Below are positions 25,557-40,846 of a stretch of DNA of 64,000 bases, piece by piece. Origin of the DNA: a virus. Lineage: Duplodnaviria > Caudoviricetes. Position 1 is the first letter of the stretch. The number at the start of each line of letters is the position of its first letter. Below the pieces are notes generated by a model that did no database searches, had not been told where the DNA came from, and worked only from the letters and a program-made list of their open reading frames with translations. The translations under genes were made by a program, and so were the position numbers. Location: the IMG/VR virus record IMGVR_UViG_2926965794_000002, positions 32,001-96,000 of that record; one strand, written 5' to 3'.

Positions 25557-25579
25557 TTTGCGAGTTCCGGCCAAAAATT

Positions 25580-25700
25580 CGGGCCGCCTCAAAAAAATTG
25601 TGCAGGTGCCACCCCGAGCGGTCCCGGGTCCGCGCGCCGTCGGGAAATTGCCCCGGGGGTACGGTTCGGCCGGATTGCTAGCGAAATGGGCGGGTTTAGG
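25580..25700. other. Candidate packaging end (cos) region
   Basis: Non-coding DNA directly upstream of terS with GC-rich near-palindromes (CCCCGGGGG) and an abrupt composition change; exact site not determinable. Confidence 0.35.
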
Positions 25701-25956
25701 CGCCGTTCTGGCGGGTTTTGCGTGCGATTGGCGCGGTTGAGGCGCGCCGAGCTATGGGCGCCGAGGGCTTGCCGGATGGCCGAGGCCGATAGCCTGGCCG
25801 ATTAGTGTCAATCCGTTGTGCTGGCGCCGCTGGCGCCGCGCCGCGCGCGGTAACCGTCCGCCTTCTCTCTCGCCTAGCGTGCCTAGTGGCGTGGTGCGGT
25901 TGACGTTGCGGCCTTGCGTCCATCCGCCGAGGCCGAGGCGCCGAGGCCAGAAACGC

Positions 25957-25986
25957 AAAACCCGCCGAGGTTTCCCGCGGCGGGTT
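25957..25986 (-). terminator. Intrinsic terminator (minus strand)
   Basis: AACCCGCCG-cgggaaacct-CGGCGGGTTTT. Confidence 0.55.
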
Positions 25987-26162
25987 GGCTGCAGCGACAC
26001 TGCGCCGAATGCCTGTTCTGAATCATAACTGGAGTCGGAGTGTCAAATCCGGTTCCGCTACTCGGCGGTGCATGACGGCGCCGCGCGGCCTCGGTCTCTC
26101 CCTGTTCTGTGATAGCTATTCGCTAGATGGACTGTTCAAACTCACGGGATAGGGAAAACGAC

Positions 26163-26474
26163 ATGCCTGCAGCGAAGGCGAATAGCTCGGCGCCGAGACA
26201 AGCCGGCAAAGGCCGCGCCTATGCCTCGGCCGGCGCCACACTGCGAATCAGCGCGGCCGAATTCATCGCTTGGCAGGAAGAGCTAGGCCTTTCGAATGGT
26301 GCTGCAGCTGCAGCGCTATTCGTTTCGCCCAATACGGTTACAGCGGTGCGCGCGGAAGGCGGTAGCGCTGAACTGGCGCTGAAGTGTCGCGCCATCGCCG
26401 CCGGCCTTTCGCCAGCGCTACCCATGCAAGAGGCCTTCCGCCTCGGCCGGATAAACGCCATTCTGCAGGAATAG
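26163..26474 (+). CDS. Small XRE-like HTH protein (first island gene)
   Basis: SAAEFIAWQEELGLSNGAAAAALFVSPNTV helix-turn-helix pattern; start trimmed to MPAAK. Confidence 0.7.
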   Translation: MPAAKANSSAPRQAGKGRAYASAGATLRISAAEFIAWQEELGLSNGAAAAALFVSPNTVTAVRAEGGSAELALKCRAIAAGLSPALPMQEAFRLGRINAILQE

Positions 26475-26547
26475 GCCGCAATTCCCTGTAGTGTGAGGTC
26501 GGCCGGCCGAAACCCTATCTTTTTTCACAGAGCAGCGAATTAGGGGA

Positions 26548-26576
26548 TTGACAGGCACCGCGCTTTCTAGGCATGT
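26548..26576 (+). promoter_or_regulatory. Candidate sigma70 promoter of the island
   Basis: Perfect TTGACA at 26548, 42 nt before repeat A1; -10 box weak. Confidence 0.4.
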
Positions 26577-26623
26577 GCGGCGAACGGAACGCGCGATTGT
26601 GCGCAAATCAAAAGGCCGCCGAC

Positions 26624-26860
26624 ATGGCAAAGACTATCGCCTATCAAGTCACAGTCCGCCGCATTGCTACCGGTTGTGACTTCCATATCCGTCTATTCTC
26701 ACAGTCCGCCGAGCATGCCAGCAACCGCGCCGTTGATCGCGCGCGCTTCGCTGAACGTATCTCACTGGCCAAATATCAGGAACTGAATGCCAAAGGCATT
26801 GCGTGCTTTCGCGTCATTTCTTGCGAAGTGTCCGCCGATCAATCGCGGCCGATTGGTTAG
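26624..26860 (+). CDS. Small hypothetical island protein
   Basis: ATG 34 nt after repeat A1, with RBS. Confidence 0.75.
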   Translation: MAKTIAYQVTVRRIATGCDFHIRLFSQSAEHASNRAVDRARFAERISLAKYQELNAKGIACFRVISCEVSADQSRPIG

Positions 26861-26868
26861 GCCGCGCC

Positions 26869-27036
26869 ATGCTCGCCGCTTTCATTTCCTTTTGCATCGC
26901 CAACCCGCCCTTTGCAGGTTTTATGCTTGCAGCGATCTATACCCTTTGCTGGGCCATCCTAGCTCCCTTTCTGTATGCGCCGGCAACGCCTCGGCGCCGT
27001 TCGATCCGGCGCCGCGCGCGCCGCAACCGCCGCTAG
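26869..27036 (+). CDS. Small membrane protein with Arg-rich tail
   Basis: MLAAFISF.. hydrophobic segment then RRRSIRRRARRNRR. Confidence 0.5.
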   Translation: MLAAFISFCIANPPFAGFMLAAIYTLCWAILAPFLYAPATPRRRSIRRRARRNRR

Positions 27037-27047
27037 GAGCAAAGCCA

Positions 27048-27284
27048 ATGCCGATTATCGTTTGCCATGATGGGGCGATCTACCGCGCCGAGATTTGGGG
27101 ATTCCGCGGCACTTGCGCGCTAATCCATAAGGCTAGCGGCCGATATGCGGTTATCCGCGGCGCCGAGGCCGCGCGTTACCATGACGCAATCGCGGTTGCG
27201 TATCTGCGATTTGGTAGCATGCCGGGTGATACGCTCTATGCCTGGCTTTGGACCAATGCCGGCTTTCATCGTTTGGCCAGCTAG
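27048..27284 (+). CDS. Small hypothetical island protein
   Basis: AGGAG RBS, MPIIVCHDG start. Confidence 0.6.
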   Translation: MPIIVCHDGAIYRAEIWGFRGTCALIHKASGRYAVIRGAEAARYHDAIAVAYLRFGSMPGDTLYAWLWTNAGFHRLAS

Positions 27285-27339
27285 GCCGCCTTCTAAGACT
27301 GCAACCGCGCGACTGTGCGCAAATCGAGAGGCTAGACCA

Positions 27340-27420
27340 ATGAGAGAGAATTCCGATTTTATCCTGTTCTGCGCGGCGGCTTTCGTCGGAACGTTTGTCA
27401 TTTTCGCTTGCTGTATGTGA
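27340..27420 (+). CDS. 26 aa hydrophobic micro-protein
   Basis: ATG 34 nt after repeat A2; MRENSDFILFCAAAFVGTFVIFACCM. Confidence 0.55.
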   Translation: MRENSDFILFCAAAFVGTFVIFACCM

Positions 27421-27430
27421 GGCGCGCGCC

Positions 27431-27670
27431 ATGGCAAAGCCTGATGATTTGACTTCCTACGCCTCGGCCGGATATGCCGCGCCGGCCTCGGCCAATCCGC
27501 ACTTGTGGAGTAGCGCAACACACATTGCGTTTCGCCTCGGCCAATGGTTGCACGAAACCGGCCGGCCGGCCCCGCGGAACGTCCGCATGTCGCGCGGCCT
27601 TTCGATCCGCGCAAACGATATGCTGATACGCTGGAACGCCAAAACCGGCGCATGCGAACGGATCAACTAA
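27431..27670 (+). CDS. Small hypothetical island protein
   Basis: GAGG RBS; MAKPDD..NPHLWSS..AFRLG. Confidence 0.65.
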   Translation: MAKPDDLTSYASAGYAAPASANPHLWSSATHIAFRLGQWLHETGRPAPRNVRMSRGLSIRANDMLIRWNAKTGACERIN

Positions 27671-27764
27671 CGCGATTTGCAGCCTATGCCGTGCAAGTCA
27701 CGGCATAACCGGCAAACCGCCGAAACCGCGCAATTGTGCGCAAACTTGAAAAGGACATAGGCAA

Positions 27765-27869
27765 ATGAAGTATCGCAAGCATGATTCCGACCGCCGGCCG
27801 AGCGACAAGCGGACTCGCCGCGCCGCGGTGCGCGATGGCAAGCGCGCGTTTCTGAATTCTTGCCTCTAA
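27765..27869 (+). CDS. 34 aa basic micro-protein
   Basis: ATG 38 nt after repeat A3; MKYRKHDSDRRPSDKRTRRAAVRDGKRAFLNSCL; below the ORF-track cutoff. Confidence 0.55.
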   Translation: MKYRKHDSDRRPSDKRTRRAAVRDGKRAFLNSCL

Positions 27870-27882
27870 GGGAGCTAGGGCA

Positions 27883-28179
27883 ATGCCTGCAGTCACACTA
27901 GACGGCGCCGTCTATTTCAATTGCTGTACGGATTACTCGGCGCCGGATTGGTCCGCCTTTCGTTCGCTGGAAATTGGAGGTTGCAGTGTCCGGCATGATC
28001 CGGACACGGGCGAAAGCAATGTGACCGGAAACCGCGCGCCGGACGATTCCGCCTTTTGGACTGTATACGCTCGCGAGCATGACGGTTGCGCGCTCGCGAT
28101 TACCGATTGCGGAATCCAAACGGAAACACACGCGATTGCCGAAACGCTATCCCGGCTTTCCGGCCTTCCCCTGATTTGA
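27883..28179 (+). CDS. Small acidic hypothetical protein
   Basis: GGGAG RBS; 98 aa. Confidence 0.7.
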   Translation: MPAVTLDGAVYFNCCTDYSAPDWSAFRSLEIGGCSVRHDPDTGESNVTGNRAPDDSAFWTVYAREHDGCALAITDCGIQTETHAIAETLSRLSGLPLI

Positions 28180-28267
28180 CGTTGCGACACTGCGCAGCAT
28201 GTCTGCGCAGCACGGAACGCCAAAGCGGACCAACGCGCGATTGTGCGCAATCGAAAGGCTTTCGACC

Positions 28268-28672
28268 ATGAACCGCAAACCGCAATTCGCTTGGCAATGT
28301 TCCTTTATGGGGACTGTCTACTATCGCGTTACGGATCAAACCGGCAACTATGAGGTTTCCATCCGTCATTCCGTTTCCGACTATGAGCTATCGATAGCAA
28401 ATGGCGATGACGTCCGGCGCGCCATGCGGACGGGAATCGGCATGCTTGTCCGATATGCCGAGGCATTGCCGGCGGATATCGTCGCGGCCTTCAATGCCTG
28501 GCGCGCCGCTGAACATGCTGCAGCCATGGCGAAACTTGACGCCGCGCCGGAACGCTATGGCGTCATCGCGCCGGATGACGAATTGCGCAAGCCGCCAATG
28601 ATCGCCCGCGCGGCCTCCTATGATCGCGCGCTGGGATGGATTCCGGTTTGCGAACTGGAGCGCGCAGCATGA
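28268..28672 (+). CDS. Hypothetical island protein
   Basis: ATG 34 nt after repeat A4. Confidence 0.75.
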   Translation: MNRKPQFAWQCSFMGTVYYRVTDQTGNYEVSIRHSVSDYELSIANGDDVRRAMRTGIGMLVRYAEALPADIVAAFNAWRAAEHAAAMAKLDAAPERYGVIAPDDELRKPPMIARAASYDRALGWIPVCELERAA

Positions 28673-28998
28673 ACCGCGATGCATTCCGCCGCACCATTTC
28701 CGCGCTACGCGCCGAGGCGAGAGGCCGGCGCCATCATGTCGCGACATTCTGGATTGTCTGCAACGGCGTCGAATTCACGGCGCGCGCAGAACGGGCAATC
28801 GGTCCGGTTGATTTGCGGACGTCGCGTCTATCTTGCCGGCCTCGCCGAGCTCTTGCGGCCGAGGCCTTGCGTTGGGCGGCTCATTATCGGCGCGCCGCGA
28901 AACACTCGCCTATCGCCCGCGCTCGCAATCTAGAGGCCGCGCGCGAATGCATCGCCGAGGCCGCGGCCTATCATTCCGTCTTTAACCGCCTTCCGTGA
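28669..28998 (+). CDS. Arg/Ala-rich hypothetical protein
   Basis: ATGA overlap with the upstream gene. Confidence 0.6.
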   Translation: MNRDAFRRTISALRAEARGRRHHVATFWIVCNGVEFTARAERAIGPVDLRTSRLSCRPRRALAAEALRWAAHYRRAAKHSPIARARNLEAARECIAEAAAYHSVFNRLP

Positions 28999-29011
28999 GG
29001 GATACCGCACC

Positions 29012-29350
29012 ATGAAAACAGCGCGCTTTTGGCACTATCACAAATCCGGCCTTGTTCGTATTGCGTTGCGGACTGGCCAAACATTGCACCATTCGCACGG
29101 CGCCAGAACAGACGAGGGATGGACGCGCGAGTCCAATATCTTTTCTTTCGACGGGCAAACCGTGACTAACGAATGGTGCGACGATGGCGCGGATTGCGAT
29201 GGACGCCTAACCTGCAATGGCGTTTGCAGCTGCGCGGCCGATAGGCTTTCCGCGGGTTACCATGACGTTGAAAACGGCGCGCGGTTTCCGGACTGGCAAG
29301 CCGCCGCAAGCATACAACGCGATTATTCCGCCGAGGCTGCAGGCTACTAG
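29012..29350 (+). CDS. Hypothetical protein (TDEGW..DCDG motifs)
   Basis: GAGGG RBS; 112 aa. Confidence 0.75.
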   Translation: MKTARFWHYHKSGLVRIALRTGQTLHHSHGARTDEGWTRESNIFSFDGQTVTNEWCDDGADCDGRLTCNGVCSCAADRLSAGYHDVENGARFPDWQAAASIQRDYSAEAAGY

Positions 29351-29407
29351 GCCGGCGCCGTCGAATTCAAACGCGCGATTGTGCGCAAATCGAAAGGACA
29401 GACAGAC

Positions 29408-29599
29408 ATGGCACGATATGGCGGCGATCCGCGATGGATCATTACCAAATATCCGGCCAATGACCGGAACGGGCATTTTATCCCGGTAGGAACGCGCGCG
29501 TTCTATTATCCGGTTTCCAAACGCATGTTGACCGGCGCCGAGGCTGAACAGGCAAGCCGCGATTTTGAGGCCGCACGTTTCGACGAAAGCATGAGGTAA
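29408..29599 (+). CDS. Small hypothetical island protein
   Basis: ATG 36 nt after repeat A5; DPRWI.TKY motif. Confidence 0.75.
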   Translation: MARYGGDPRWIITKYPANDRNGHFIPVGTRAFYYPVSKRMLTGAEAEQASRDFEAARFDESMR

Positions 29600-29605
29600 A
29601 GCGCA

Positions 29606-29905
29606 ATGGATTTTGCAGCATTCCAAGCCGCCGCGGCCGAGTTGGATAGCCGCATGAAAGAGGCCGGCGCGCGCCTCGGCGCCGTGACAGAAAGCCTTGC
29701 GGCCGAGATGGGGATTCCGGCGCGCGGTCCGATGGGATTGACGCCGGACCGCATTAAGTTTGATCCGCGATACCGGCTTGCGAAGGCCGCGGCCGATATC
29801 GCCTTTGCGGAACTACGGGCATTCAATGGCCGGTATGCGCCGCGCTTCAAGAAAGAGATACGCGCCGAGATTGACGCGCGGCGCCGTGCGAAGTGCACCG
29901 CTTAA
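29606..29905 (+). CDS. Small hypothetical protein (GPMGLTPD motif)
   Basis: GAGGT RBS; 99 aa. Confidence 0.75.
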   Translation: MDFAAFQAAAAELDSRMKEAGARLGAVTESLAAEMGIPARGPMGLTPDRIKFDPRYRLAKAAADIAFAELRAFNGRYAPRFKKEIRAEIDARRRAKCTA

Positions 29906-29967
29906 CCTGGCCTCGCCTTCCATCACTATTCCCGCGCGATTGTGCGCAACAGAAAGGACAATGGACC

Positions 29968-31068
29968 ATGCAACAGAGTGATATGATCGCGGCAAAGGCT
30001 GCCAAGGCAACGGAACGGCGCGCGCTGGCAATTATCGCCTATGACAACGCTAAACAGGATCCTGACGGCGCGAACTGGCAAGGGATTGCCGATTTGCTGC
30101 GCCTCTCCCTTCCCTCGGCGAAAGCCAAGGCCGCGCCGGCCGAGACTGGCGCCGACAACGGCGCGCCATGGTCGGATTATGATATCCCGGCAAGCGCGAC
30201 GAAACGTCTAGGCAAATCGCCTATCATCGTTGTGACGTTCTCTTGCGGTGCCGTGGTCTGCGCGCCGGCGGTTTCCCTTCCCGGCAAGCCGGTAAACATC
30301 GGCCGCGGCTTGCGTGTTGCCTTTGCCTTCTACCGCGCGCGGATCGCCCGGGAATTCGGCAAGGCCTCGGCCATTGGTTCGGATTGCGTGAACGTTCCGG
30401 CCATCGTTTCCGCCATCTGTGACGCTACCGGCGCCGAGTATGGCGCGGACGAATGCAACGCCAAAACCTCCGAATTCCGCCGCGGCGGTTTCGATCATGT
30501 CGCGCTTTCCGCCGAGGCCTCGGCCTTGCCGGAAAAGGCCGAGGCCGGCGAGTTGACGCGCGCCGACTTCTACCGCGGCCATTACCTCATTGCCTCGGCC
30601 GAGGCCGAGATTTTGGCCGGCGCCAATGAGGATCGCGCGGCCGAGTTGGGCGCGCAGATTAACGATTATCGCGCGCGCCTCGGCGGCTTGTCATGGCTGG
30701 AAATTGAAGCGCGGCGCCGCGCCGCAATCCGTGAGGCCAAAGCCGCGGCAAAGGCCGAGGCCGAGGCTATGGCCGAGGCCGGCCGGCGCGCCGAGCGCGA
30801 GGCCGAGGCGCACGCAGCTGCAGCCAAGGCCGAGGCCGAGGCGCCGCGGTTGCGGCTTGTCGGGGACAATTCCGCCAGCGTCGAAACCGCGGCGGCGCCA
30901 TCCCTCCCAGATACGGCCGATTCCCTCCCGGTTGCGCCCGCGCCAAAATCGGCCGCGCCTCTCCCGGTTGCGCCTTCCCGCGTCGCGCGCTTCCTGGCCT
31001 CGTCATCGCTCGGCGCGCCTCGTCATTCCCTCCCGGTTGCGCCTTTCTGCGCGATCCGCTCGGCCTAG
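29968..31068 (+). CDS. Ala-rich hypothetical protein with LPVAP repeats
   Basis: ATG 35 nt after repeat A6; 366 aa. Confidence 0.75.
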   Translation: MQQSDMIAAKAAKATERRALAIIAYDNAKQDPDGANWQGIADLLRLSLPSAKAKAAPAETGADNGAPWSDYDIPASATKRLGKSPIIVVTFSCGAVVCAPAVSLPGKPVNIGRGLRVAFAFYRARIAREFGKASAIGSDCVNVPAIVSAICDATGAEYGADECNAKTSEFRRGGFDHVALSAEASALPEKAEAGELTRADFYRGHYLIASAEAEILAGANEDRAAELGAQINDYRARLGGLSWLEIEARRRAAIREAKAAAKAEAEAMAEAGRRAEREAEAHAAAAKAEAEAPRLRLVGDNSASVETAAAPSLPDTADSLPVAPAPKSAAPLPVAPSRVARFLASSSLGAPRHSLPVAPFCAIRSA

Positions 31069-31083
31069 TCGGAGTCGCCAGCA

Positions 31084-31281
31084 ATGCACGCCTATGGTTT
31101 CGATATCCAACCGGACGGGGCAAGGTTTCGCCTAGTTGACCGCGCCGAGTTCAACCATTGGGGCGAGTTATCGCCGCGGTTCGATACCGCGGCCAAGGCC
31201 GAGGAATACGCGCGCCGTTGCGACGAATTAAAGCGCGGCAAGCGCTCAACCGTCGAATTGCGCGCTTGGGAACTGACCTAG
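31084..31281 (+). CDS. Small hypothetical island protein
   Basis: GGAG RBS; 65 aa. Confidence 0.6.
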   Translation: MHAYGFDIQPDGARFRLVDRAEFNHWGELSPRFDTAAKAEEYARRCDELKRGKRSTVELRAWELT

Positions 31282-31349
31282 GCCGCGGCGCGCCTCGGCC
31301 TCTCGAATTGACACGCGCGATTGTGCGCAAACGGAAAGGAATACAGACA

Positions 31350-31763
31350 ATGCGGAAACCGACTCCCAACAAAGAAAAGGCCGCGCAGCTGGCGCGCCAA
31401 ATCGCCAACATGACAGACGAGCAAAAGGCGCTTTGGCTGCAGCGCGCGCCGATCCTCACCGCGGACGCGCGGCCGATATCCGGCAAAAATCACATGCTGG
31501 CGGCGATGCAGTGCGAAGGCGCAACCATGCTCGGCGGCTTCAATCAATGGCTTGCCGCCGGCCGCGCGGTGCGGAAAGGCGAGTCCGCAATCTATATCTT
31601 TGCGCCGTCCGGCCGGCGCGCACCGGCCGAGGCCTCAGCGCCGCCGAGCGCGGAAGGCGCCGCGTCCGAGGCCGTGGCGGAGTCGGTGCGGTTTATCCTG
31701 GTGCCGGTTTTCGACGTTTCGCAAACCGAGGAAAAGCCGGCCGAACAAGCCGCCGCGGCATAG
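31350..31763 (+). CDS. ArdC N-terminal (DUF1738) ssDNA-binding domain protein
   Basis: SGKNHML..GFNQWLAAGRAVRKGE.AIYIFAP..F.LVPVFDVSQTE signature; ATG 36 nt after repeat A7. Confidence 0.85.
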   Translation: MRKPTPNKEKAAQLARQIANMTDEQKALWLQRAPILTADARPISGKNHMLAAMQCEGATMLGGFNQWLAAGRAVRKGESAIYIFAPSGRRAPAEASAPPSAEGAASEAVAESVRFILVPVFDVSQTEEKPAEQAAAA

Positions 31764-31820
31764 TCCCGGCTACGATCGATTTTGCACCCCCGAGCTACGG
31801 CCGATTTTGCGCAACACCGC

Positions 31821-31850
31821 TTGACAGATTCGGCCGACACAAATTAGAGA
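31821..31850 (+). promoter_or_regulatory. Candidate sigma70 promoter
   Basis: TTGACA-N18-TAGAGA, 38 nt before repeat A8. Confidence 0.45.
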
Positions 31851-31894
31851 AGCACCCCCGCGCGATTGTGCGCAAATCGAAAGGACAGAAACAC

Positions 31895-34255
31895 ATGCAG
31901 CATTCCGCCACCTATTCGCCCGATGATAACAAGCTGCGCCTTTATCCGGCGCACCGCCTGGACGCCGAGGAGTACGCGCGCGTGAAGGCCGCCGGCTTCA
32001 AGTGGGCGCCGCGCCAAGAACTGTTCGTCAAACCGTCCTGGAGCCCAAGCGCCGAAGATTTGCTGATTGAGATGTGTGGCGAGATCGGCGACGAGGACAA
32101 GAGCCTGGTAGAGCGCGCCGAGGATCGCGCCGACCGCTTCGACGAGTACAGCGACAAGCGGCTTTCAGAAGCCAACCGCGCGCGCGAGGCCGTGGACCAG
32201 ATCGCGGAACGGTTCGCGATGGGGCAGCCGATCTTGGTCGGCCATCATTCGGAGAAGAGCGCCCGCAGGGACAAAGAGCGCATGGATTCCGGCATGCGCA
32301 AGGCTCTCAAACTCTGGGACACCTCGAAATATTGGACGGCGCGCGCGGCCGGCGCCATCGCTCACGCGAAATACAAGGAACTGCCGGCGGTGCGTCATCG
32401 CCGCATCAAGGGCATTGAGTCCGATAAGCGGAAGCTGGAACGCCAGCAAGCAGAAACCGAAAGGCAGCTGAAGGCCTGGCAGATCGTCGCCGGCATCACC
32501 GACCTGGAGAAGCAGCGCGCGGCCGGTCTGACCGTGGCCAACAGCAGCGGTTATTGGTCGATGTCGTTTCCGCTGGCTGACTATCCGCGCGATCCGCCCG
32601 CCTCGCAGTATGAGGGACCGATGGGCCTTTGGTCCGCAATTGACGGGAACGTCATCACCGCCGCGCAGGCCGCCGCTATCGCGATTCCGAGCCTGCAGCG
32701 TTCCGGGCCTTGGCGAGACCGTTGGGTTGCGCACTATGACAACCGGCTGGCCTATGAACGCGCGATGTTGGCCGAGCAGATCGGCACCGAGGCGACCGCC
32801 AACCCGCTGGCCGACCGCTTCGCCTTCGCCGTCGGCGGCGAGGTGCAGACACGTCGCAGCGATGAATGGGTTACGGTGTTGAAGGTCAACCGCGGCGCTA
32901 ACGGTTCAGTTTCCAGCATGACGACGACCACGCCGGCCGGATCGCGCGGCAAGCAAGCGCATTGGAAGGTGGAGAGCATCCGCGATTATCGCGCGCCGAG
33001 CGCCGAGAACGTCGCCGCAGCGAAGGCCGCAACCAAGCTGCCGCCGCTCTGCAACTATCCCGGCGAGGGATTCCGCGAGATGACGGAGACCGAATGGAAG
33101 GGCCGCCGGCAGTTCTCGGATTTCTCCTATATCGGCAAGGTGAAGGAGACCGAGACCCACGGCGCGCATCGCGTGCGGCAAATGCCGACGCCCGGCGAAT
33201 TCTGGAAGAAACAGCAAGTTTTCATTACGGATGCAAAGCGCGTCGATCCGCCCAAGATCGCGCCGGCAGCCGAGCCGCAGGCGCCCGCGGAATTCGTCGC
33301 CGAGTATGTAGCGCCGCCCGCTGTTGATATTGACGCCATGCTGGCAACGGTCGGCGAGATCACCGGCGCACCGGTCGAGACCGTCACCCAGGACGAGCCC
33401 GAGGCCGTGCCGGCGCTGGTCCCGGTTGCGCCCGCGGAGGAGCCGCGACGCCTCGGCGACGCTAAGGCGGAGGCCCAGCGCATCGGCGCTGAGATCATCA
33501 CCGGACTCGGCCAGTTCCGTGTTGGCCTCGGCCAGCACGTCACCGACTGGTGCGACGATGAGGCGACGGCCTGGCGGCAGTTCTGCGAACTGGCTGGCGT
33601 GCCGTTCGAAGCCGAGGCGGTGCCGGCGGACCTGCGGCCGCGCGTTCTCGCCCCGGTCCCGGATACGGCCGATTCGCCGGAGCCGACCGCGGCGGACAGC
33701 TTCGAGGCAATGCGGGCCATGCTGAAAGGCGGCGGCGTTCAAGTCGTCGTTGCGCCTCAACTCTTCCCGACCTCGAACGAACTTGCCGCGGACGTCGCCG
33801 AGGCCGCCGACATCCGGCCCGGGCAGCGCATCTTGGAGCCGAGCGCAGGAACCGGCGCGCTTATCGAGGCCGCGCGCAACTGTGCCGATGGTCTCCAGGT
33901 GGTGGCGGTCGAGATCAACACCAAACTGTGCCAGGCGCTGGCCAACCGCTTCACCGGGTTGACCGTCATCAATGCGGACTTTCTCGACATGGCCGGCGCA
34001 ACGGACAAGTTTGACCGGATCATCATGAATCCGCCATTCGAGCGCGGCGCCGACATCAAGCACATTGAGAACGCGCGGCGCTTCCTGAAACCTGACGGCC
34101 GACTGGTCGCCATCTGCGCCGACGGACCGCGCCAGCGCGCGAAGCTCGAACCGATCGCGGTGGAGTATCGCGCCCTGCCCCCGGGATCCTTCAAGGCCGC
34201 CGGAACGATGGTCAACACGGCGCTCGTCGTGATCGATGGGCCGCCGCCGAGATAG
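31895..34255 (+). CDS. DUF3560-domain protein fused to a C-terminal amino-DNA methyltransferase
   Basis: ATYSPDDNKLRLY, GFKWAP, GQPILVGHHSEK; C-terminal ILEPSAGTG and IMNPPF; ATG 36 nt after repeat A8. Confidence 0.9.
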   Translation: MQHSATYSPDDNKLRLYPAHRLDAEEYARVKAAGFKWAPRQELFVKPSWSPSAEDLLIEMCGEIGDEDKSLVERAEDRADRFDEYSDKRLSEANRAREAVDQIAERFAMGQPILVGHHSEKSARRDKERMDSGMRKALKLWDTSKYWTARAAGAIAHAKYKELPAVRHRRIKGIESDKRKLERQQAETERQLKAWQIVAGITDLEKQRAAGLTVANSSGYWSMSFPLADYPRDPPASQYEGPMGLWSAIDGNVITAAQAAAIAIPSLQRSGPWRDRWVAHYDNRLAYERAMLAEQIGTEATANPLADRFAFAVGGEVQTRRSDEWVTVLKVNRGANGSVSSMTTTTPAGSRGKQAHWKVESIRDYRAPSAENVAAAKAATKLPPLCNYPGEGFREMTETEWKGRRQFSDFSYIGKVKETETHGAHRVRQMPTPGEFWKKQQVFITDAKRVDPPKIAPAAEPQAPAEFVAEYVAPPAVDIDAMLATVGEITGAPVETVTQDEPEAVPALVPVAPAEEPRRLGDAKAEAQRIGAEIITGLGQFRVGLGQHVTDWCDDEATAWRQFCELAGVPFEAEAVPADLRPRVLAPVPDTADSPEPTAADSFEAMRAMLKGGGVQVVVAPQLFPTSNELAADVAEAADIRPGQRILEPSAGTGALIEAARNCADGLQVVAVEINTKLCQALANRFTGLTVINADFLDMAGATDKFDRIIMNPPFERGADIKHIENARRFLKPDGRLVAICADGPRQRAKLEPIAVEYRALPPGSFKAAGTMVNTALVVIDGPPPR

Positions 34256-34331
34256 CCCCCGGCTGCGCCTACCTCCCGGCTACGATCGATTTTGAACCGC
34301 GCAACTGTGCGCAATTTTGAAAGGACACCGA

Positions 34332-34838
34332 ATGCCCATGACCTTCGAGCAGTTTCAGGCCACCCGCACCGAATGCGCCGACATCGGCGCAGCCATCAGC
34401 ACCGATATGGGGATAACCGAGCCAGTGCCCGGCTTTCTGTACCTCGGGACGTTCTATATCGAGGGCATGACGTCAACCTGGCCCGACGAGGCGCGCGCGC
34501 AGGGGACGTATCACCTCCTGATCGAGCGCGACGAATGGATTAGCGACGACCTCGAAGCGTTGGAGCGCCACCTTTTTGAGTTTGCGCTCGCCTCTGGTGC
34601 CGAAATGGGAATTGACGACCTCTGCGCCGAGTACAAGACCTGGAACAAGGCGCAAGGCCTCAACCTCAGCAGCGCTGATGAGCATCTGGCCGACGAGACG
34701 CTTTCCGAGGAGCAGCGCGGTTGGCTGCGCGACTTCTCCAGCCGTTGGGAAGAGGCTGAGCAGCGCGCGCGGCGTCACAAGTGCCAGCACCGCGACAGCG
34801 GGCGCGGCGTCTGCATCGACTGCGGCGCAGCCCTTTGA
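34332..34838 (+). CDS. Acidic hypothetical protein with C-terminal Cys/His cluster
   Basis: ATG 34 nt after repeat A9; ends CQHRDSGRGVCIDCG. Confidence 0.75.
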   Translation: MPMTFEQFQATRTECADIGAAISTDMGITEPVPGFLYLGTFYIEGMTSTWPDEARAQGTYHLLIERDEWISDDLEALERHLFEFALASGAEMGIDDLCAEYKTWNKAQGLNLSSADEHLADETLSEEQRGWLRDFSSRWEEAEQRARRHKCQHRDSGRGVCIDCGAAL

Positions 34839-34873
34839 CCCCTCGGCTACGACCGATTTGACGGAGGCTCCTC

Positions 34874-35041
34874 ATGCTCACAATTGAGATAATCGCGACC
34901 GCGACGGGCAAATGCATCAAGCGCTGTGCGTTCGAGGCCGCGACGGTTTCGGATCGCGCCGCGGTGTTCCTGTCATTCCTCAATTACTGGGAACGGCATT
35001 TCGGACAGCAGACCGATTACACCTGGCGCACACCCGCATAG
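34874..35041 (+). CDS. 55 aa hypothetical protein
   Basis: GGAGG RBS right after a B repeat; MLTIEIIATATGK..; below the ORF-track cutoff. Confidence 0.55.
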   Translation: MLTIEIIATATGKCIKRCAFEAATVSDRAAVFLSFLNYWERHFGQQTDYTWRTPA

Positions 35042-35056
35042 GAAGGAGGTTGACTC

Positions 35057-35374
35057 ATGACGACCAAGAAGCCCGATATCTACTCCGGCCCCATCGAAGG
35101 CGCGCGCGCCGCCATCATCGAAGCGCTCGGCGGTGCATTCGCAACCCCGCCAGCCTCGCCGCCCGAACGCCAGCTGACCGACGACGAGAAGGCCTTTATC
35201 GCCCGCATGGCGCCGCACGTCATGGCCGGCAAGACGATGGAGGAAGCCGCGGCGGCCGTCGTCCAGGACGATGAGCGGCTTTGGCTGACCGCTACGGAGG
35301 ACTCCGACGTTGGCCGCGCGATCCGCGACGAGCTCGCCGCCACGGTCTACGCCGCGGCGCGATCTGCGACATAG
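35057..35374 (+). CDS. Hypothetical protein
   Basis: AGGAGGT RBS; 105 aa. Confidence 0.7.
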   Translation: MTTKKPDIYSGPIEGARAAIIEALGGAFATPPASPPERQLTDDEKAFIARMAPHVMAGKTMEEAAAAVVQDDERLWLTATEDSDVGRAIRDELAATVYAAARSAT

Positions 35375-35449
35375 AGACGGCTGCACCTCCCGCTTACGAC
35401 CGATTTCCCAATACCCCCTCGGCTACGGCCGATTTGAGAGGAGTCCGAA

Positions 35450-36073
35450 ATGCCTCGACGCAAATCCAAACTGCCGGCACCGAAACCGCCGATCGAGATC
35501 GGCGACTATTTCGCCCATCGCGGTCTCGACAATGTCACTGTCCGTCTAAAAACAGGCCCTCTTGACAACAACTTCTTTTCGCTCCGCGACGAGCACATCA
35601 CGCAGTGCTCGACTTTCGAAGGTGCCGAGCGCCTGGCAGCGCTGATGAATCAGGCTCGCGACCTCGCCCGTGACTATCGCATGGTCTCCAATATCGGCGG
35701 TCAATTCGGCGGCCGCGATCAGATCGCAGGCTACATCGCGCGTCACGTCGCCAATGCCCTCGACGTGCCACACCGATACGTCTCACCGGACGAGCACACC
35801 CGCGAGACGCTCAATGAATACGGCCGTCAGGTCGGCGATCTCGCGCGGTTCTTCGCCTTCCTGGATGCGACCGGTACGCCGGCCACGCTCGATGACTTCA
35901 AGGCCCGGGCCATGCTGCGCCGGCATGCTATCAACGACCGCGACTGCACGTACTGCGACCACGACCGTTCCCGCGAGGTTGTCCGTGCTTGGCGCCGCAC
36001 CTTCGATCCGTCGACCGCCGCGGCAGATCGCGCCGCGCAGGTTCTCCGGGAGATAGAGGCCGCAACATCATGA
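35450..36073 (+). CDS. Hypothetical protein
   Basis: GAGGAG RBS after a B-repeat pair; 207 aa. Confidence 0.7.
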   Translation: MPRRKSKLPAPKPPIEIGDYFAHRGLDNVTVRLKTGPLDNNFFSLRDEHITQCSTFEGAERLAALMNQARDLARDYRMVSNIGGQFGGRDQIAGYIARHVANALDVPHRYVSPDEHTRETLNEYGRQVGDLARFFAFLDATGTPATLDDFKARAMLRRHAINDRDCTYCDHDRSREVVRAWRRTFDPSTAAADRAAQVLREIEAATS

Positions 36074-36345
36074 CCAACGAACAAATGGTTTCAGCCGCCG
36101 GCATCAAGGTCGTGACCCGTGCCGAGTTCGACGCCGCGACCGACGTTCCCGCCGGCGTGCGCCTGGTGGCCAATCGGCTGTTCAAACGCTGGGGCGGCGA
36201 CTTCGTGGTGTACGACCCGGCCGGCGGCGATGACGGCTGGCTGCTCATCGACGATGATCGAGAACAGATCATCGGCGAGACGATCGAACACCTCGGACGG
36301 CTCAACCCTGAGCCGTCGGCGCCGGCGCAAGGCTCGCTTTTCTGA
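36070..36345 (+). CDS. Small acidic hypothetical protein
   Basis: ATGA overlap; MTNEQMV start. Confidence 0.65.
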   Translation: MTNEQMVSAAGIKVVTRAEFDAATDVPAGVRLVANRLFKRWGGDFVVYDPAGGDDGWLLIDDDREQIIGETIEHLGRLNPEPSAPAQGSLF

Positions 36346-36563
36346 TGACACTGAGGCCCTGGAAAGAGTTGACCCGCGACCAGCGGGCCGAGCGCCTCGG
36401 CGACGCGCGGCGATGGAAGAAGCCCGCCGAGCCTGGAGACAAGCGGGCAGCCGAACTGCTGCGGCGGCTCGAGTCCGGAGAACCCTTGACCCGGGCCGAC
36501 CTAAAGGAGGCCCGCGCGCTGCTGCGCGCCAAACGAGGAAGGAATCAAGATGAGACAGGTTAG
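36345..36563 (+). CDS. Small hypothetical protein
   Basis: TGATG coupling; 72 aa. Confidence 0.55.
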   Translation: MTLRPWKELTRDQRAERLGDARRWKKPAEPGDKRAAELLRRLESGEPLTRADLKEARALLRAKRGRNQDETG

Positions 36564-36915
36564 ACGCGTGCCCGCCGATTGGCAGCACCCCCGCAACTCC
36601 GGAGGCCGGTATGTCCCGCTGCTGGAGACTGCCCCGGATGCGCCCGCGCCCGATCCTACCCGCCACATGCCGGCTTGGCCAGCGGCGCAGCGCACGCACT
36701 GGCAGCTGTACGAGACCACCAGCGCCGGCACGCCGGTTTCGCCACCCTGCCCGTCACCCGAGGCGTTGGCCAAATGGCTGGCCGGCCACCATGTGGAGGC
36801 CGCACCAGGCTTCACGGGAACGGAGGCGCAATGGCTCGGCGCGATCAAGCGCGGCACCATCCCGCCGGTGATGACCGTCGGCAAGCGCCAGGTCAATCCG
36901 CTCGACTACACCTGA
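36550..36915 (+). CDS. Hypothetical phage protein (RRVPADWQHP..WQLYETTS.GTPVSP)
   Basis: AAGGA RBS; 121 aa. Confidence 0.75.
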   Translation: MRQVRRVPADWQHPRNSGGRYVPLLETAPDAPAPDPTRHMPAWPAAQRTHWQLYETTSAGTPVSPPCPSPEALAKWLAGHHVEAAPGFTGTEAQWLGAIKRGTIPPVMTVGKRQVNPLDYT

Positions 36916-37008
36916 TCGGCCGGGACTCCCGGCTACGATCGATTTTGTGCTACCCCCTCGGCTACGGCCGATTCCGGGCGACTGTGCCCAACCGGAAAGG
37001 ATCTCGAG

Positions 37009-37332
37009 ATGTCACCACCCCGATTTGCTCACCGCAAGATCACGAGCGAAGATTTCAAGGCCGAGCTGGCCAAGCAAGGCATGTCGGTGCCGGCGTTCGC
37101 GCGCGTCTGGTGCCAGAACCTGTCTACGGTGAAGAAGTGGGCGAATGGCGGGAACGATATCCCGACCTGGGTGCCGATCGCGCTCACCATGATGACGCTG
37201 CCGAATGCCCATGGCACCGCTCGCATGGCGGCGGCGGCGATGATCGAAGAGGATCGGCTGCATCCCGAGCTCGGGAAATTCCCCTATCAGAAGCTTCGGC
37301 AGATGCCGGCGGACGACGAGATCGAGGAATAG
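37009..37332 (+). CDS. Small XRE-like HTH protein (last island gene)
   Basis: SEDFKAELAKQGMSVPAFARVW..STVKKWANG..IP.WV; ATG 34 nt after repeat A10. Confidence 0.8.
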   Translation: MSPPRFAHRKITSEDFKAELAKQGMSVPAFARVWCQNLSTVKKWANGGNDIPTWVPIALTMMTLPNAHGTARMAAAAMIEEDRLHPELGKFPYQKLRQMPADDEIEE

Positions 37333-37340
37333 CCCCCGGG

Positions 37341-37556
37341 CTACGATCGATTTTGCGCGGCCCGGCTGCGCTTCTTCTTCGTCGTGCGCCGATTCTTCGG
37401 CTGCGATCGCTTCGCTGCCGGCGTCGTCGGCGCGTCCTTTGCTGCGGCCGCGGCATCACGGGCATCAAGCTCGCGCTTCAACGCCTGATTACGCTCCCAG
37501 TTGGCTTCGCGGAAAGCGCGGAGTCCGTCAGCGCGCGTAGTTGGCTCTTTTGACAT
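37341..37556 (-). CDS. Small basic hypothetical protein
   Basis: GGAGG RBS; stop codon overlaps the last B repeat. Confidence 0.55.
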   Translation of the reverse strand: MSKEPTTRADGLRAFREANWERNQALKRELDARDAAAAAKDAPTTPAAKRSQPKNRRTTKKKRSRAAQNRS

Positions 37557-37565
37557 GCCTCCCTC

Positions 37566-37910
37566 CTACGATCTCATGCGGTTTGCTCGAGCCTGAATGC
37601 CCGACCTGGTGTTGTGCGAGTTGCAGGCGCAGCGCCCGTTGGTCAGATCCAGCGCTAGTTCCGGATTGTCGCGGATATCCCTGATGTGGTCGGCATACAT
37701 CTGGTGACCGTTGGCGCGGCTGCGCTCGCAGCGGAGGCCGTTCTCGACATACTCGCAACGCCAGCCGGCGCGCCGCTTCACCTTCTCGGCCCAGTCCTTG
37801 TGCTCGGCGGTCTGGTAGTGAGGATCCGCGCGCTTCGGCAGGATTGTCGCCTTCCGGGTGTCCAGCGTCTGGATGCGCGAGCTGAGGCTCGGAATGCGAG
37901 CTCGAGTCAC
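37566..37910 (-). CDS. Phage HNH endonuclease (terminase-associated type)
   Basis: C..C, ADHI, LDLTNG, CNSHN motifs; size and position. Confidence 0.85.
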   Translation of the reverse strand: MTRARIPSLSSRIQTLDTRKATILPKRADPHYQTAEHKDWAEKVKRRAGWRCEYVENGLRCERSRANGHQMYADHIRDIRDNPELALDLTNGRCACNSHNTRSGIQARANRMRS

Positions 37911-38101
37911 CGCCCACCCCCTTTCTCATTGCGCCTTGGGCCGAACATCTTCCGGCCCATCGAGCGAAGCATCTCGCGCTGATCCCAGGTCATCTGGTCG
38001 CGATCGACGTCGACCAGGAGGAGACCGTATTCACGCCAAACCCGCTGTTTCGTTTCCAGGGGGGTCTCACGGGTGTTGGGGGCAAACCTTCCAAGCGACA
38101 T
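37907..38101 (-). CDS. Small hypothetical protein
   Basis: 64 aa, coupled to HNH. Confidence 0.55.
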   Translation of the reverse strand: MSLGRFAPNTRETPLETKQRVWREYGLLLVDVDRDQMTWDQREMLRSMGRKMFGPRRNEKGGGR

Positions 38102-38111
38102 CGATCCAGCC

Positions 38112-40806: not shown

Positions 40807-40846
40807 GCGTGGCGTCCTCGCGAAGATCCTACTTTTGGAGGACATT

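What the first reader, a model, noticed from the sequence alone, without database searches (positions are those of the whole stretch)
25700..37355. Candidate new system: a first-injected, hairpin-regulated anti-defence leading region in a temperate phage
Seen: about 25 co-oriented, mostly under-130-aa genes lie between terS and HNH, opposite to both flanks. They include ArdC-N and DUF3560-methylase genes, HTH genes at both ends, two private repeat families and a restriction-site void that is strongest next to terS. Known: ArdC and DUF3560 are typical of conjugative-plasmid leading regions; lambda packages from the terS end and ejects the opposite end first; T7 and T5 place anti-host genes on first-entering DNA. 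Inference: this block is the last-packaged, first-ejected end, transcribed inward immediately on entry to disarm host defences, then shut off through the repeats.
Basis: partly seen in the sequence, partly recalled or inferred. Interest (0 to 1): 0.92.

Follow-up and report, generated by a model that had tools for sequence, protein, structure and literature searches.

The report
Hairpin-punctuated accessory gene array in prophage
A Bradyrhizobium-type prophage carries, between its replication and DNA-packaging genes, an 11.6-kb backwards-facing array of about 24 small genes, many headed by the same tiny covarying hairpin just before the ribosome-binding site; two genes resemble plasmid anti-restriction genes, so an early counter-defence role is plausible, but the "first-injected" idea is untested.

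Summary
The gene block, its orientation, ArdC-N, the DUF3560-methylase and two strand-specific repeat families are real. The general "restriction-site void" is not: 6-bp palindromes are enriched, and the depletion of GATC/TCGA-type sites is mostly codon usage. The scan met this island type before on other DNA (e1-5766634, e1-5766638).

New here:
- **Conservation.** The island holds its place and orientation in every related Nitrobacteraceae prophage that could be checked.
- **Family A.** It is a 4-bp stem with an AAUUGU-type hexaloop, 4-7 nt before the Shine-Dalgarno. At least ten stem versions stay complementary while the asymmetric loop is conserved.
- **Family B.** It is a strand-specific sequence motif after stop codons. 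It is not a conserved hairpin.
- **Cassette junctions.** Gains, losses and replacements between close relatives break 0-13 nt from repeat cores.
- **Candidate reader.** A 31-39 aa arginine-rich peptide (g27765) co-occurs with the hairpin in 13 of 14 peptide-bearing loci. It is absent from the one island with a different loop.

Best reading: a hyperplastic accessory or establishment module. Its cassettes are co-regulated through start-associated RNA hairpins and shuffled at the repeats.

Position next to cos, first ejection, early timing and anti-defence activity remain inferences.

The parts
25002..25592 (-). putative small terminase (terS), first gene of the - strand packaging/structural operon
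   Evidence: Abuts and overlaps TerL (23263-25005, PF03354/PF20441). Matches phrog_12540 at 3.8e-18 and terS PHROGs only weakly. No Pfam hit.
25593..26126 (.). divergent control region between terS and the island; contains the mosaic junction (about 25778-25823), a GC-rich conserved block (25820-25850) and a strong hairpin (25957-25986)
   Evidence: The high-identity alignment to L165/L168 starts at 25778-25823, and the terS-proximal ~190 bp does not align. The GC-rich block is unique in the 110-kb record and conserved in L165/L167/L168. Candidate site for cos and promoters; not shown.
26127..26474 (+). first island gene, HTH-like (start possibly 26163)
   Evidence: Sub-threshold HTH hits (Pfam E 0.04-0.2, phrog_664 E 0.004, XRE structures E 0.35). 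Orthologues in L165-L169, L176 and L179.
26591..26606 (+). family A hairpin copy 1 (GCGC-GATTGT-GCGC-AA), heads g26624
27307..27322 (+). family A copy 2, heads g27340/g27431
27728..27743 (+). family A copy 3, heads the peptide gene g27765
27765..27869 (+). g27765: 34-aa arginine/lysine-rich peptide (12 K+R), candidate reader of the hairpin
   Evidence: Conserved in all 10 family-A-type islands and absent from L180. The family has about 9 clusters among 1.84 billion representatives. Three of four further peptide loci carry hairpins on the same strand. No Pfam match.
28235..28250 (+). family A copy 4, heads the cassette g28268-g28669-g29012; left break-point of a cassette replacement against L165
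29373..29388 (+). family A copy 5, heads g29408/g29606; right break-point of the same replacement
29934..29949 (+). family A copy 6, heads g29968
29968..31068 (+). g29968: 366-aa conserved island protein of unknown function (alpha/beta domain, long coiled coil, disordered tail)
   Evidence: 38 homologues in 5.8 billion proteins; all named ones are Bradyrhizobium or Rhodopseudomonas, and none has a Pfam domain. AF2 mean pLDDT 76. No significant fold match.
31315..31330 (+). family A copy 7, heads ArdC-N
31350..31763 (+). ArdC N-terminal (ssDNA-binding) domain protein without the metalloprotease half
   Evidence: PF08401, 26.6 bits against a 22.6 cut-off; phrog_7245 'anti-restriction protein', E 6e-6; no HExxH in the sequence.
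31768..31806 (+). two tandem family B copies (31768, 31793) after the ArdC-N stop; break-point of a 2.2-2.6 kb insert present in L165/L167/L168
31860..31875 (+). family A copy 8, heads the DUF3560-MTase; preceded by TTGACA-N17-TTAGAG
   Evidence: The promoter-like sequence is read from the sequence and is conserved in L167/L168.
31895..34255 (+). DUF3560 + SAM-dependent DNA methyltransferase (NPPF motif), 786 aa
   Evidence: PF12083 at 1.1e-33 plus MTase families. Plasmid homologues and their leading-region context.
34278..34314 (+). family B copy (34278) followed by family A copy 9 (34299); heads g34332
34845..34858 (+). family B copy after the g34332 stop
35392..35434 (+). two tandem family B copies (35392, 35421) before g35450
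36931..36991 (+). two family B copies (36931, 36960) followed by family A copy 10 with the compensated stem GGGC...GCCC (36976)
   Evidence: The stem variant sits at the orthologous position in five of the first six islands (L167 has a one-base loop change there) and in L179.
37009..37332 (+). last island gene g37009, XRE/Cro-type HTH protein
   Evidence: AF2 model, residues 12-70 at pLDDT 81-90. All top Foldseek hits are XRE-family HTH domains: HigA2 rmsd 2.3-2.4 A over 64 aa, C.Kpn2I, MqsA, Aca1/2/10. Mean column identity among orthologues 83%.
37339..37371 (+). final family B copy and a terminator-like hairpin (37355-37371) closing the island
37566..37910 (-). HNH endonuclease, last gene of the - strand replication/middle operon
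   Evidence: phrog_589 at 9.3e-9 and three further HNH PHROGs.

Best explanation
The block is a conserved accessory ('hyperplastic') module of a family of HK97-like cos prophages of Bradyrhizobium and Rhodopseudomonas. It lies on the opposite strand at the junction between the replication/HNH operon and the terS-TerL-portal operon.

It is built as an array of cassettes of one to three genes. Each cassette begins with a start-associated mini-hairpin: a 4-bp G+C-rich stem and an AAUUGU-type hexaloop. The Shine-Dalgarno sequence starts 4-7 nt after the element and the start codon follows 9-22 nt after it. In the right half, cassettes end with a second strand-specific motif (C-rich run, then GGCTACGGCCGATTT) just after the stop codon.

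Proposed mechanism. The hairpin forms in the mRNA and acts as a common site through which one factor sets translation or stability for all hairpin-headed cassettes together. The best candidate for that factor is the island's own 31-39 aa arginine-rich peptide, g27765, which is itself hairpin-headed and so would feed back on its own synthesis. The XRE-type HTH protein encoded last, behind a variant hairpin, probably controls transcription of the island. Because the same short sequences recur at every cassette boundary, they also act as recombination junctions, so cassettes are gained, lost and swapped between related phages.

The cargo (ArdC-N, an orphan DUF3560 methylase, DUF932 in relatives, many lineage-restricted small ORFans) points to establishment or counter-defence functions after DNA entry.

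Shown: the architecture, its conservation, the stem covariation, the fixed spacing to the SD, break-points at the repeats, and co-occurrence of peptide and hairpin. Inferred: action at the RNA level, the peptide as reader, the direction of regulation, the anti-defence role and early timing.
For: Architecture and gene calls.

Conservation: the island holds the same place and orientation in L165-L169 and in L179, L180, L181 and L185.

Hairpin. 54 near-invariant copies occur in six islands, all on the island strand. The SD starts 4-7 nt after the core in all 54, and the start codon follows at 9-22 nt. In the pair count, 100% of 168 cells are paired, 3 of 4 stem pairs change on both sides, 0 of 500 shuffles reach this and the slid controls show none. 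In an unbiased test, 17 of 18 R-A-N-T-G-T sites followed by SD + start have fully complementary flanks, against 3 of 44 other sites. Further stems appear in new loci (TCGC/GCGA, TGCC/GGCA, GCTC/GAGC, GCGA/TCGC, GGTC/GACC) with none on the opposite strand. L180 has a sister element with a covarying outer pair and a different loop.

Logic of the pattern: a conserved asymmetric centre with freely covarying arms is what a stem-loop read in single-stranded form shows. It is the reverse of what a dimeric dsDNA operator shows.

Cassette junctions. 33% of break-points lie within 15 nt of a core, against 8% expected and at most 12% in 1000 randomisations. Among islands about 88% identical, replacements and inserts break 0-13 nt from cores in both genomes.

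Peptide.

Cargo.

HTH fold of the last gene. Terminator-like hairpin at the island end.
Against: There is no expression, binding or phenotype evidence.

The hairpin is marginal thermodynamically (4 bp); local folds are no more stable than shuffled sequence, and Rfam has no match.

No G-U pairs are seen, so an ssDNA or DNA-level reading is not excluded.

Co-occurrence of peptide and hairpin rests on a single negative island (L180). One peptide-bearing contig (L183, 3.3 kb) showed no hairpin under my filter. In L182 and L185 the peptide gene is not directly hairpin-headed.

The resemblance of the peptide to arginine-rich RNA-binding motifs is recalled, not tested.

Conserved cores may anchor alignment ends and so inflate the all-pairs break-point statistic; the close-pair listing is the firmer evidence.

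Only 2 of 24 window genes have any link to anti-restriction.
Confidence: 0.55

Rival explanations
1. The island is the last-packaged, first-ejected end of the virion DNA. It is transcribed inward at once on entry to disarm host defences, as a phage counterpart of a plasmid leading region or of the T5 first-step-transfer and T7 early regions, and is then shut off through the repeats. This can hold in addition to the best explanation; it adds claims about topology and timing.
For: The closest TerL relatives (about 57% identity) are cos phages. In phiBt-TXDOH the cohesive ends fall inside terS and HNH abuts it, and Bordetella PHB09 has HNH-terS-TerL. The ~190 bp upstream of terS diverges with the packaging genes, while the island stays about 88% identical, which places a terminase-specific site there. 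With cos there, lambda-type packaging (established knowledge: packaging runs from cos towards the terminase and head genes, and the last end in is the first out) puts g26127 and its control region at the entering end, and the direction of transcription equals the order of entry. The cargo includes leading-region gene families.
Against: The termini are not mapped, and contig ends gave nothing consistent. The gap next to HNH (37355-37566) is also variable and could hold cos. In L179 an HNH gene and two small genes separate the island from terS. No staged-entry mechanism is evident, and a siphovirus genome normally enters within minutes, so a positional advantage may be small (established knowledge). 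Palindromes are enriched, not avoided. Codon bias is weakest next to terS, the opposite of plasmid leading regions (PMC13478746). The window's terS belongs to a different family from that of the cos phages compared.
Confidence: 0.3
2. DNA-level control. Families A and/or B are binding sites on double-stranded DNA for the island's HTH proteins (g37009, g26127) or for the prophage repressor. They would act like the orientation-specific 'stoperators' of Cluster A mycobacteriophages, or like Aca operators of anti-CRISPR operons, silencing the array in the lysogen or after an early burst.
For: g37009 has an XRE fold shared with C-proteins, HigA and Aca repressors. The GCGC arms lie 10 bp apart centre to centre, one helical turn (read from the sequence). 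The variant GGGC...GCCC copy sits exactly before the HTH gene in five of the first six islands and in L179, as expected for autoregulation. All stem pairs are Watson-Crick, with no G-U. Family B is strand-specific, intergenic and not a conserved hairpin, which is how stoperators are described (PMC3203893).
Against: In family A the arms vary freely, even within one island (four stem types in L181), while the asymmetric centre is conserved. A dimeric operator shows the opposite pattern. The rigid 4-7 nt spacing to the SD has no obvious reason at the DNA level. No sigma-70-like promoter overlaps the sites.
Confidence: 0.2
3. Purely cis-acting mRNA punctuation. Family B marks processing sites or weak 3' ends, and family A hairpins cap and stabilise the new 5' ends or act as ribosome standby sites. 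A long transcript would then be turned into discrete, well-translated cistrons without any dedicated trans-acting factor, comparable to the RNase III sites between T7 early genes.
For: B follows stop codons (46 of 79 copies within 30 nt) and A sits just before the SD. B ends in GAUUU(U), and some copies can form a 5-bp stem with a UACG loop. The repeats occur between cassettes, not within them.
Against: The near-invariant hexaloop, conserved across phages whose proteins are only 45-60% identical, argues for sequence-specific recognition. The B stem is not maintained.
Confidence: 0.15
4. A lysogenic-conversion (moron) or defence island. The array is expressed from the prophage to benefit the lysogen, through superinfection exclusion or host defence, rather than to help the infecting phage.
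For: It lies on the opposite strand to both phage operons, has its own control region and terminator, has atypical composition in the left part and has variable cargo next to the packaging genes, a common site for morons and defence hotspots (established knowledge of P2-like and lambdoid phages).
Against: The recognisable genes are of the establishment or anti-restriction type, not defence genes. About ten genes are conserved as a core across phages with exchanged structural modules.
Confidence: 0.1

Closest known systems
Start-associated sequences (SAS/ESAS) of Cluster K mycobacteriophages (Pope et al. 2011, PMC3203893)
   Same: Short conserved repeats (13 bp, 11-19 copies) in one orientation, confined to the non-structural part of the genome, a few bases upstream of start codons of a subset of often unrelated genes, and absent from the host genome.
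   Different: SAS contains the SD itself and is not a covarying hairpin; its extended form is a separate 17-bp inverted repeat. Here the element is a 4-bp covarying stem with a conserved hexaloop upstream of a separate SD. It is confined to one opposite-strand island, paired with a second motif after stop codons, found in phages of Alphaproteobacteria, and accompanied by a candidate peptide reader.
PeSL regulatory cassettes of T4-type phages (Arbiol et al. 2010, PMC2839356; Comeau et al. 2014, PMC4122927)
   Same: Repeated short regulatory motifs flank small non-essential ORFan genes in hyperplastic regions. Insertions, deletions and replacements between close relatives occur by recombination at these motifs (compared).
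   Different: A PeSL is a strong sigma-70 early promoter plus a terminator stem-loop. Here no sigma-70 consensus accompanies the repeats and the elements sit in the translation-initiation region. Mini-circles were not looked for.
Anti-defence islands in the leading region of conjugative plasmids (Samuel et al. 2024, PMC11541004; Shaw et al. 2026, PMC13478746)
   Same: Co-oriented clusters of small genes rich in orphan methyltransferases, ssDNA-binding functions and unknown proteins. The DUF3560-MTase has homologues of about 50% identity in such regions.
   Different: There is no oriT or relaxase and no ssDNA entry. No Frpo-type ssDNA promoter is present: those are long structures with -35/-10 elements, whereas this is a 14-nt hairpin. 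Only one window protein matches the two plasmid regions examined. Codon bias is weak rather than strong, while neither shows consistent palindrome depletion.
Lambda N / boxB (arginine-rich-motif peptide bound to a small RNA hairpin; PMC2724277)
   Same: A small phage-encoded arginine-rich protein and a short hairpin with a conserved loop in early transcripts (compared).
   Different: boxB belongs to a nut site with boxA, occurs about twice per genome, and drives transcription antitermination. Here there are 7-12 copies at fixed distance from the SD and no boxA-like element. There is no detectable homology to N, and binding is untested.
Stoperators of Cluster A mycobacteriophages, and Aca-controlled anti-CRISPR operons
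   Same: Many asymmetric, orientation-specific intergenic sites that let one repressor silence long operons (mentioned in PMC3203893). The small XRE-type HTH gene at the end of an accessory operon resembles Aca, and Aca1/2/10 are among the fold matches.
   Different: No repressor-site match has been shown. The family A pattern fits a hairpin better than a duplex operator. No known anti-CRISPR genes are present.
T5 first-step-transfer DNA and the T7 early region
   Same: Anti-host genes on the genome end that enters first, transcribed in the order of entry (established knowledge).
   Different: Those phages have dedicated staged-entry mechanisms and mapped termini. Neither is known here, and this phage is a temperate HK97-like siphovirus type.

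Membership tests
ArdC anti-restriction protein | N-terminal ssDNA-binding domain (PF08401) | tested here: met
   26.6 bits against the curated 22.6 cut-off, residues 11-87.
ArdC anti-restriction protein | C-terminal metalloprotease domain with HExxH | tested here: not met
   The protein is 137 aa, has no second Pfam domain and no HExxH in its sequence. It is an ArdC-N-only protein, not a full ArdC.
DUF3560-methyltransferase of conjugative elements | DUF3560 domain fused to a SAM-dependent MTase, full-length similarity to plasmid proteins | tested here: met
   PF12083 at 1.1e-33 plus several MTase families. 46-55% identity over about 80-84% of the length to plasmid proteins. NPPF motif in the sequence.
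Plasmid leading region | Lies next to oriT/relaxase and enters the recipient first as ssDNA | tested here: not met
   The neighbours are phage packaging and replication genes. No relaxase or oriT context. The element is a dsDNA prophage.
Plasmid leading region | Frpo/ssi single-strand promoters | tested here: inconclusive
   No long structured intergenic element, no unusual fold stability and no sigma-70 consensus. No direct Frpo homology search was run.
Start-associated sequences (SAS-like) | Conserved short repeat, one orientation, immediately upstream of start codons of a subset of genes, absent from the host genome | tested here: met
   This is membership in the functional sense only; there is no sequence relationship to the mycobacteriophage SAS.
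PeSL cassettes | Strong sigma-70 early promoter plus terminator stem-loop in each unit | tested here: not met
   The promoter scan found one site, on the - strand, and none at the repeats. The repeats are not terminator-like apart from the end of the island.
PeSL cassettes | Indel and replacement break-points between close relatives coincide with the repeats | tested here: met
N/boxB-type ARM-hairpin pair | Arginine-rich peptide binds the hairpin; nut site with boxA; antitermination | not testable with these tools
   Only co-occurrence and composition (11-12 K+R in 31-34 aa) are shown. No boxA-like conserved flank is visible in alignment A4.
HNH-assisted cos packaging module (HK97-like) | HNH endonuclease adjacent to terS-TerL-portal | tested here: inconclusive
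   HNH, terS, TerL and portal are all present, but HNH is 12 kb from terS with the island between them. In L179 an HNH gene lies on the terS side. The termini are not mapped.

The most novel reading that the evidence does not exclude
A previously undescribed phage regulatory system. A conserved arginine-rich peptide of about 34 aa reads a family of start-associated RNA mini-hairpins (covarying 4-bp stem, AAUUGU loop). Through them it switches a whole shufflable array of counter-defence cassettes on and then off. The array sits on the DNA end that enters the cell first, making it a true phage counterpart of the plasmid leading region.
Probability: 0.15. Interest if true: 0.85.

Novelty: new variant of a known kind. 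Interest (0 to 1): 0.66.

Why it matters
Start-associated repeats in phage genomes, such as the mycobacteriophage SAS, have had no mechanism since 2011. This island offers a version with clear stem covariation, an invariant loop, fixed spacing to the Shine-Dalgarno and a co-occurring candidate reader, so the question can be tested directly with reporters and binding assays.

The array also shows how a temperate phage can keep a modular, exchangeable set of small genes at its packaging junction. Some of those genes are shared with plasmid leading regions. If they are counter-defence genes, about 20 lineage-restricted ORFans become candidates for new anti-defence functions in rhizobia, whose phage-host biology matters for legume inoculants.

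Tried and rejected
- **Rfam (E <= 1)** on 25000-38500: no match.
- **DNA and protein searches of the phage collection** with the island and with g29968: no match.
- **RNA evidence:** no RNA holder listed.
- **Termini from contig ends:** the 41-49 kb contigs carrying g29968 homologues end inside the island or in the structural genes, not at a common point. Metagenomic IMG/VR contigs with 1-2 motif copies were not informative.
- **Transfer of the cos position from phiBt-TXDOH:** its terS belongs to a different family.
- **g29968 fold:** Foldseek against PDB and BFVD gave nothing at E <= 0.001. The wide VIA search gave only coiled-coil matches, Z about 6.
- **g35450:** the ESM Atlas gave no usable hit.
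- **Profiles of g37009 and g26127 against PDB sequences:** not significant.
- **Pfam and PHROGs** on nearly all small ORFs, and on the extra L165 cassette: no informative hits.
- **Family A as a promoter:** rejected. There is no room for -10, +1 and SD, and the upstream flank is not conserved.
- **Family B as an intrinsic terminator or conserved hairpin:** rejected.
- **General palindrome avoidance:** rejected.
- **Chi-like protection sites:** considered and set aside. The tight link of the repeats to start and stop codons points to gene expression instead.
- **Inserted foreign mobile element:** rejected. There is no integrase, and the place is conserved across phages.

Full report
**Setting.** The window is bases 32001-96000 of a 109,940-bp IMG/VR provirus record. 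Third-position GC and Pfam/PHROGs give the following layout.
- A - strand structural operon runs from 25592 down to 2282: terS by position, TerL, portal and so on.
- A + strand block lies at 26127-37332.
- A - strand operon runs from about 52207 down to 37566. It encodes a GcrA-like regulator, an MT-A70 methylase, a beta clamp, a C5 methylase, primase, DnaB and finally an HNH endonuclease.

In canonical relatives HNH directly precedes terS (Bordetella phage PHB09; phiBt-TXDOH). Here 11.6 kb of opposite-strand DNA has been placed in that junction.

**Checking the observation.** I + strand genes, 18 of them under 130 aa, arranged in tightly coupled groups of one to three.
- ArdC-N is a 137-aa protein that passes the Pfam cut-off and lacks the protease half.
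- The 786-aa DUF3560 protein carries a SAM-MTase domain with an NPPF motif.
- Family A has 10 copies and family B about 11. All are on the + strand, all inside the island, and far above chance.
- Neither family occurs elsewhere in the record. In two whole Bradyrhizobium genomes family A occurs only in the equivalent island. Only 1 of 401 sampled genomes of the family has a cluster.
- The last gene folds as an XRE-type HTH. The first has only weak HTH signals.

**The restriction-site void does not hold as stated.** Six-bp palindromes are enriched in the island and most of all next to terS. A subset of sites built on GATC and TCGA is halved relative to the rest of the phage. Shuffling codon order within genes removes most of that difference, leaving P of 0.01-0.03 before any correction. 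The left part of the island has low GC3 (about 0.6 against 0.8-0.9 in the flanks), which accounts for it.

**The island is a conserved module.** Five other proviruses carry it in the same place and orientation. In three of them the island proteins are 80-96% identical to the window's, while terS is about 44%, TerL 50-57% and portal 30%. DNA similarity starts abruptly at window 25778-25823. More distant relatives, found through the conserved 366-aa protein g29968, show the same three-block architecture. That protein has 38 homologues in 5.8 billion proteins, and all the named ones are Bradyrhizobium or Rhodopseudomonas. Some of these relatives have DUF932 or DUF5983 in the island. About ten window genes are core, and g34874, g35450 and g36369 have no orthologue in any island examined.

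**Family A is a covarying start-associated hairpin.**
- Across six closely related islands 54 copies are almost invariant. The one variant, GGGC...GCCC, sits before the last (HTH) gene and is itself compensated.
- In every copy the Shine-Dalgarno starts 4-7 nt after the core and the start codon follows at 9-22 nt.
- More distant islands keep the hexaloop (R-A-N-T-G-T, usually AATTGT) but change the stem: GGCC/GGCC and AGCC/GGCT in L178; GGCC/GGCC, GGTC/GACC, CGGC/GCCG and GCGC/GCGC within the single island L181; TCGC/GCGA, TGCC/GGCA, GCTC/GAGC and GCGA/TCGC in further loci.
- On 45 copies every cell pairs, three of four pairs show double changes, no shuffle in 500 reaches this and the slid controls show none.
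- Some of those copies had been picked for complementarity, so I repeated the test without that filter. Of 18 loop-motif sites followed by SD and start, 17 have fully complementary flanks, against 3 of 44 elsewhere.
- L180, the most distant island, has a sister element: NGGC-AAYYRC-GCCN, with an outer pair that covaries and a different loop.

A conserved asymmetric centre with freely covarying arms, strict strand specificity and fixed spacing to the SD fits a stem-loop read in the mRNA. It fits a duplex operator poorly. The stem is short, and predicted folds are no more stable than shuffled controls, so recognition by a factor is more likely than stability alone.

**Family B is different.** It is strongly strand-specific (95 sites against 6) and usually lies within 30 nt after a stop codon, often in tandem. 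Its potential 5-bp stem is kept in only 15 of 95 copies. It is therefore a sequence motif. Two copies lie in frame inside g29968 and in the linker before the MTase domain, where they encode PDTADS.

**The repeats are cassette junctions.** Alignment break-points between islands fall within 15 nt of a core four times more often than expected. Among islands about 88% identical:
- the three-gene cassette at 28250-29372 is replaced by 267 nt in L165, with both ends on A cores;
- a 2.2-2.6 kb insert in L165/L167/L168 is bounded by B and A, or by B and B;
- a 753-nt segment at 34292-35045 (g34332 and g34874) is missing in L167/L168, with its left break on B in both genomes and its right break near B only in L167/L168.

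This is the behaviour described for PeSL cassettes in T4-type phages.

**A candidate reader.** The 34-aa ORF g27765 has 12 Lys+Arg and a conserved KR(T/I)RR...GKRAFLNSC core. It is present in all ten islands with the family A hairpin, always with the same length class, and in those ten it is itself hairpin-headed. It is absent from L180, which has the other loop. An exhaustive profile search of 1.84 billion representatives finds about nine small-peptide clusters. Three of four further peptide-bearing contigs carry AATTGT-loop hairpins on the same strand and none on the other. This is co-occurrence, not proof. The comparison with arginine-rich peptides that bind RNA hairpins, such as lambda N with boxB, is an analogy only.

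**The leading-region idea.** The DUF3560-MTase is a leading-region family. It has at least 5000 plasmid hits, mostly conjugative, and in two MOBF plasmids it lies in a co-oriented block with ssb, DUF932, kleA and radC near TraD/TrwC. Orphan methylases and ssDNA-binding proteins are the classes highlighted for leading regions. No other window protein matches those plasmid regions, and most of the cargo is lineage-restricted and of unknown fold.

The topological claim depends on where cos lies.
- For a cos beside terS: the TerL relatives are cos phages with cos in or next to terS. A terS-linked divergent stretch of about 190 bp is followed by a GC-rich block that is unique in the record and conserved in three relatives, a layout reminiscent of cosB-cosN.
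- Against certainty: the terS families differ, the HNH-side gap is also variable, contig ends were uninformative, and in L179 HNH lies between the island and terS.

No RNA data were available. I put the first-ejected model at about 0.3.

**Comparison and verdict.** The closest for the shuffling is PeSL, and for the cargo it is plasmid leading-region islands. The element fails defining features of each: SAS is not a hairpin, PeSL is a promoter plus terminator, and leading regions need oriT and ssDNA entry. I therefore file it as a new variant of a known kind. The most valuable new points are the covariation-backed hairpin, its fixed link to the SD, the break-point evidence and the co-occurring peptide. 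Together they turn an open descriptive puzzle into a testable mechanism.

Noticed in passing
window 30909-30922 and 33661-33674: Family B-like sequences lie in frame inside g29968 (in its disordered tail) and in the linker before the MTase domain of the DUF3560 protein, where they encode PDTADS. L166/L169 have two copies in that linker. This suggests that former intergenic boundaries were absorbed by gene fusion or read-through.
   Followed up: partly
window 25957-25986: Strong hairpin (CCCGCCG...CGGCGGG with an inner GAAA-type loop) followed on the - strand by TTTTGCGTTT. It looks like an intrinsic terminator for leftward transcription between the island and terS, and is conserved in L165/L168. 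It is not clear which - strand transcript it would stop.
   Followed up: no
window 25820-25850: GC-rich block with two GGCGCC palindromes, unique in the 110-kb record and conserved in L165/L167/L168 about 225-260 bp upstream of terS. It is separated from terS by the terS-specific variable stretch, which makes it a candidate cosN or control element.
   Followed up: partly
window 45296-52207 (- strand): The replication operon encodes a GcrA-like regulator (PF07750, 1e-44), an MT-A70 methylase, a complete DNA polymerase III beta clamp and a 660-aa C5 methylase. With the island's methylase the phage carries three DNA methyltransferases.
   Followed up: no
window 39000-41000: G+C drops sharply to 0.50-0.53, against about 0.64 elsewhere, between the HNH-proximal genes and DnaB. 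The content was not examined.
   Followed up: no
G000 whole record: No tyrosine integrase (PF00589) in the 110-kb provirus record. The integration system and the prophage ends were not identified. A + strand recombination block (AAA_23, PDDEXK DUF3799) lies at window 58904-61440.
   Followed up: partly
L179:5935-6792: In this relative a 285-aa HNH gene (PF01844) lies on the terS side of the island, with a second weak HNH_3 gene on the replication side. The island's position relative to HNH therefore differs between phages.
   Followed up: partly
L180:5863-11219: A distant island has six + strand copies of a sister hairpin, NGGC-AAYYRC-GCCN, before SD and start. Its outer pair covaries, and the island has no g27765-type peptide.
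   Followed up: partly
window 25700-37355: CTAG (18 against 3.6 expected from the rest of the window), AATT, GCGC, CGCG and GGCC are strongly enriched in the island. The repeats explain only part of this.
   Followed up: no
window 31820-31850: TTGACA-N17-TTAGAG lies just upstream of the family A copy that heads the DUF3560-MTase, and is conserved in L167/L168. It is a possible internal promoter whose transcript would begin a few bases before the hairpin.
   Followed up: no
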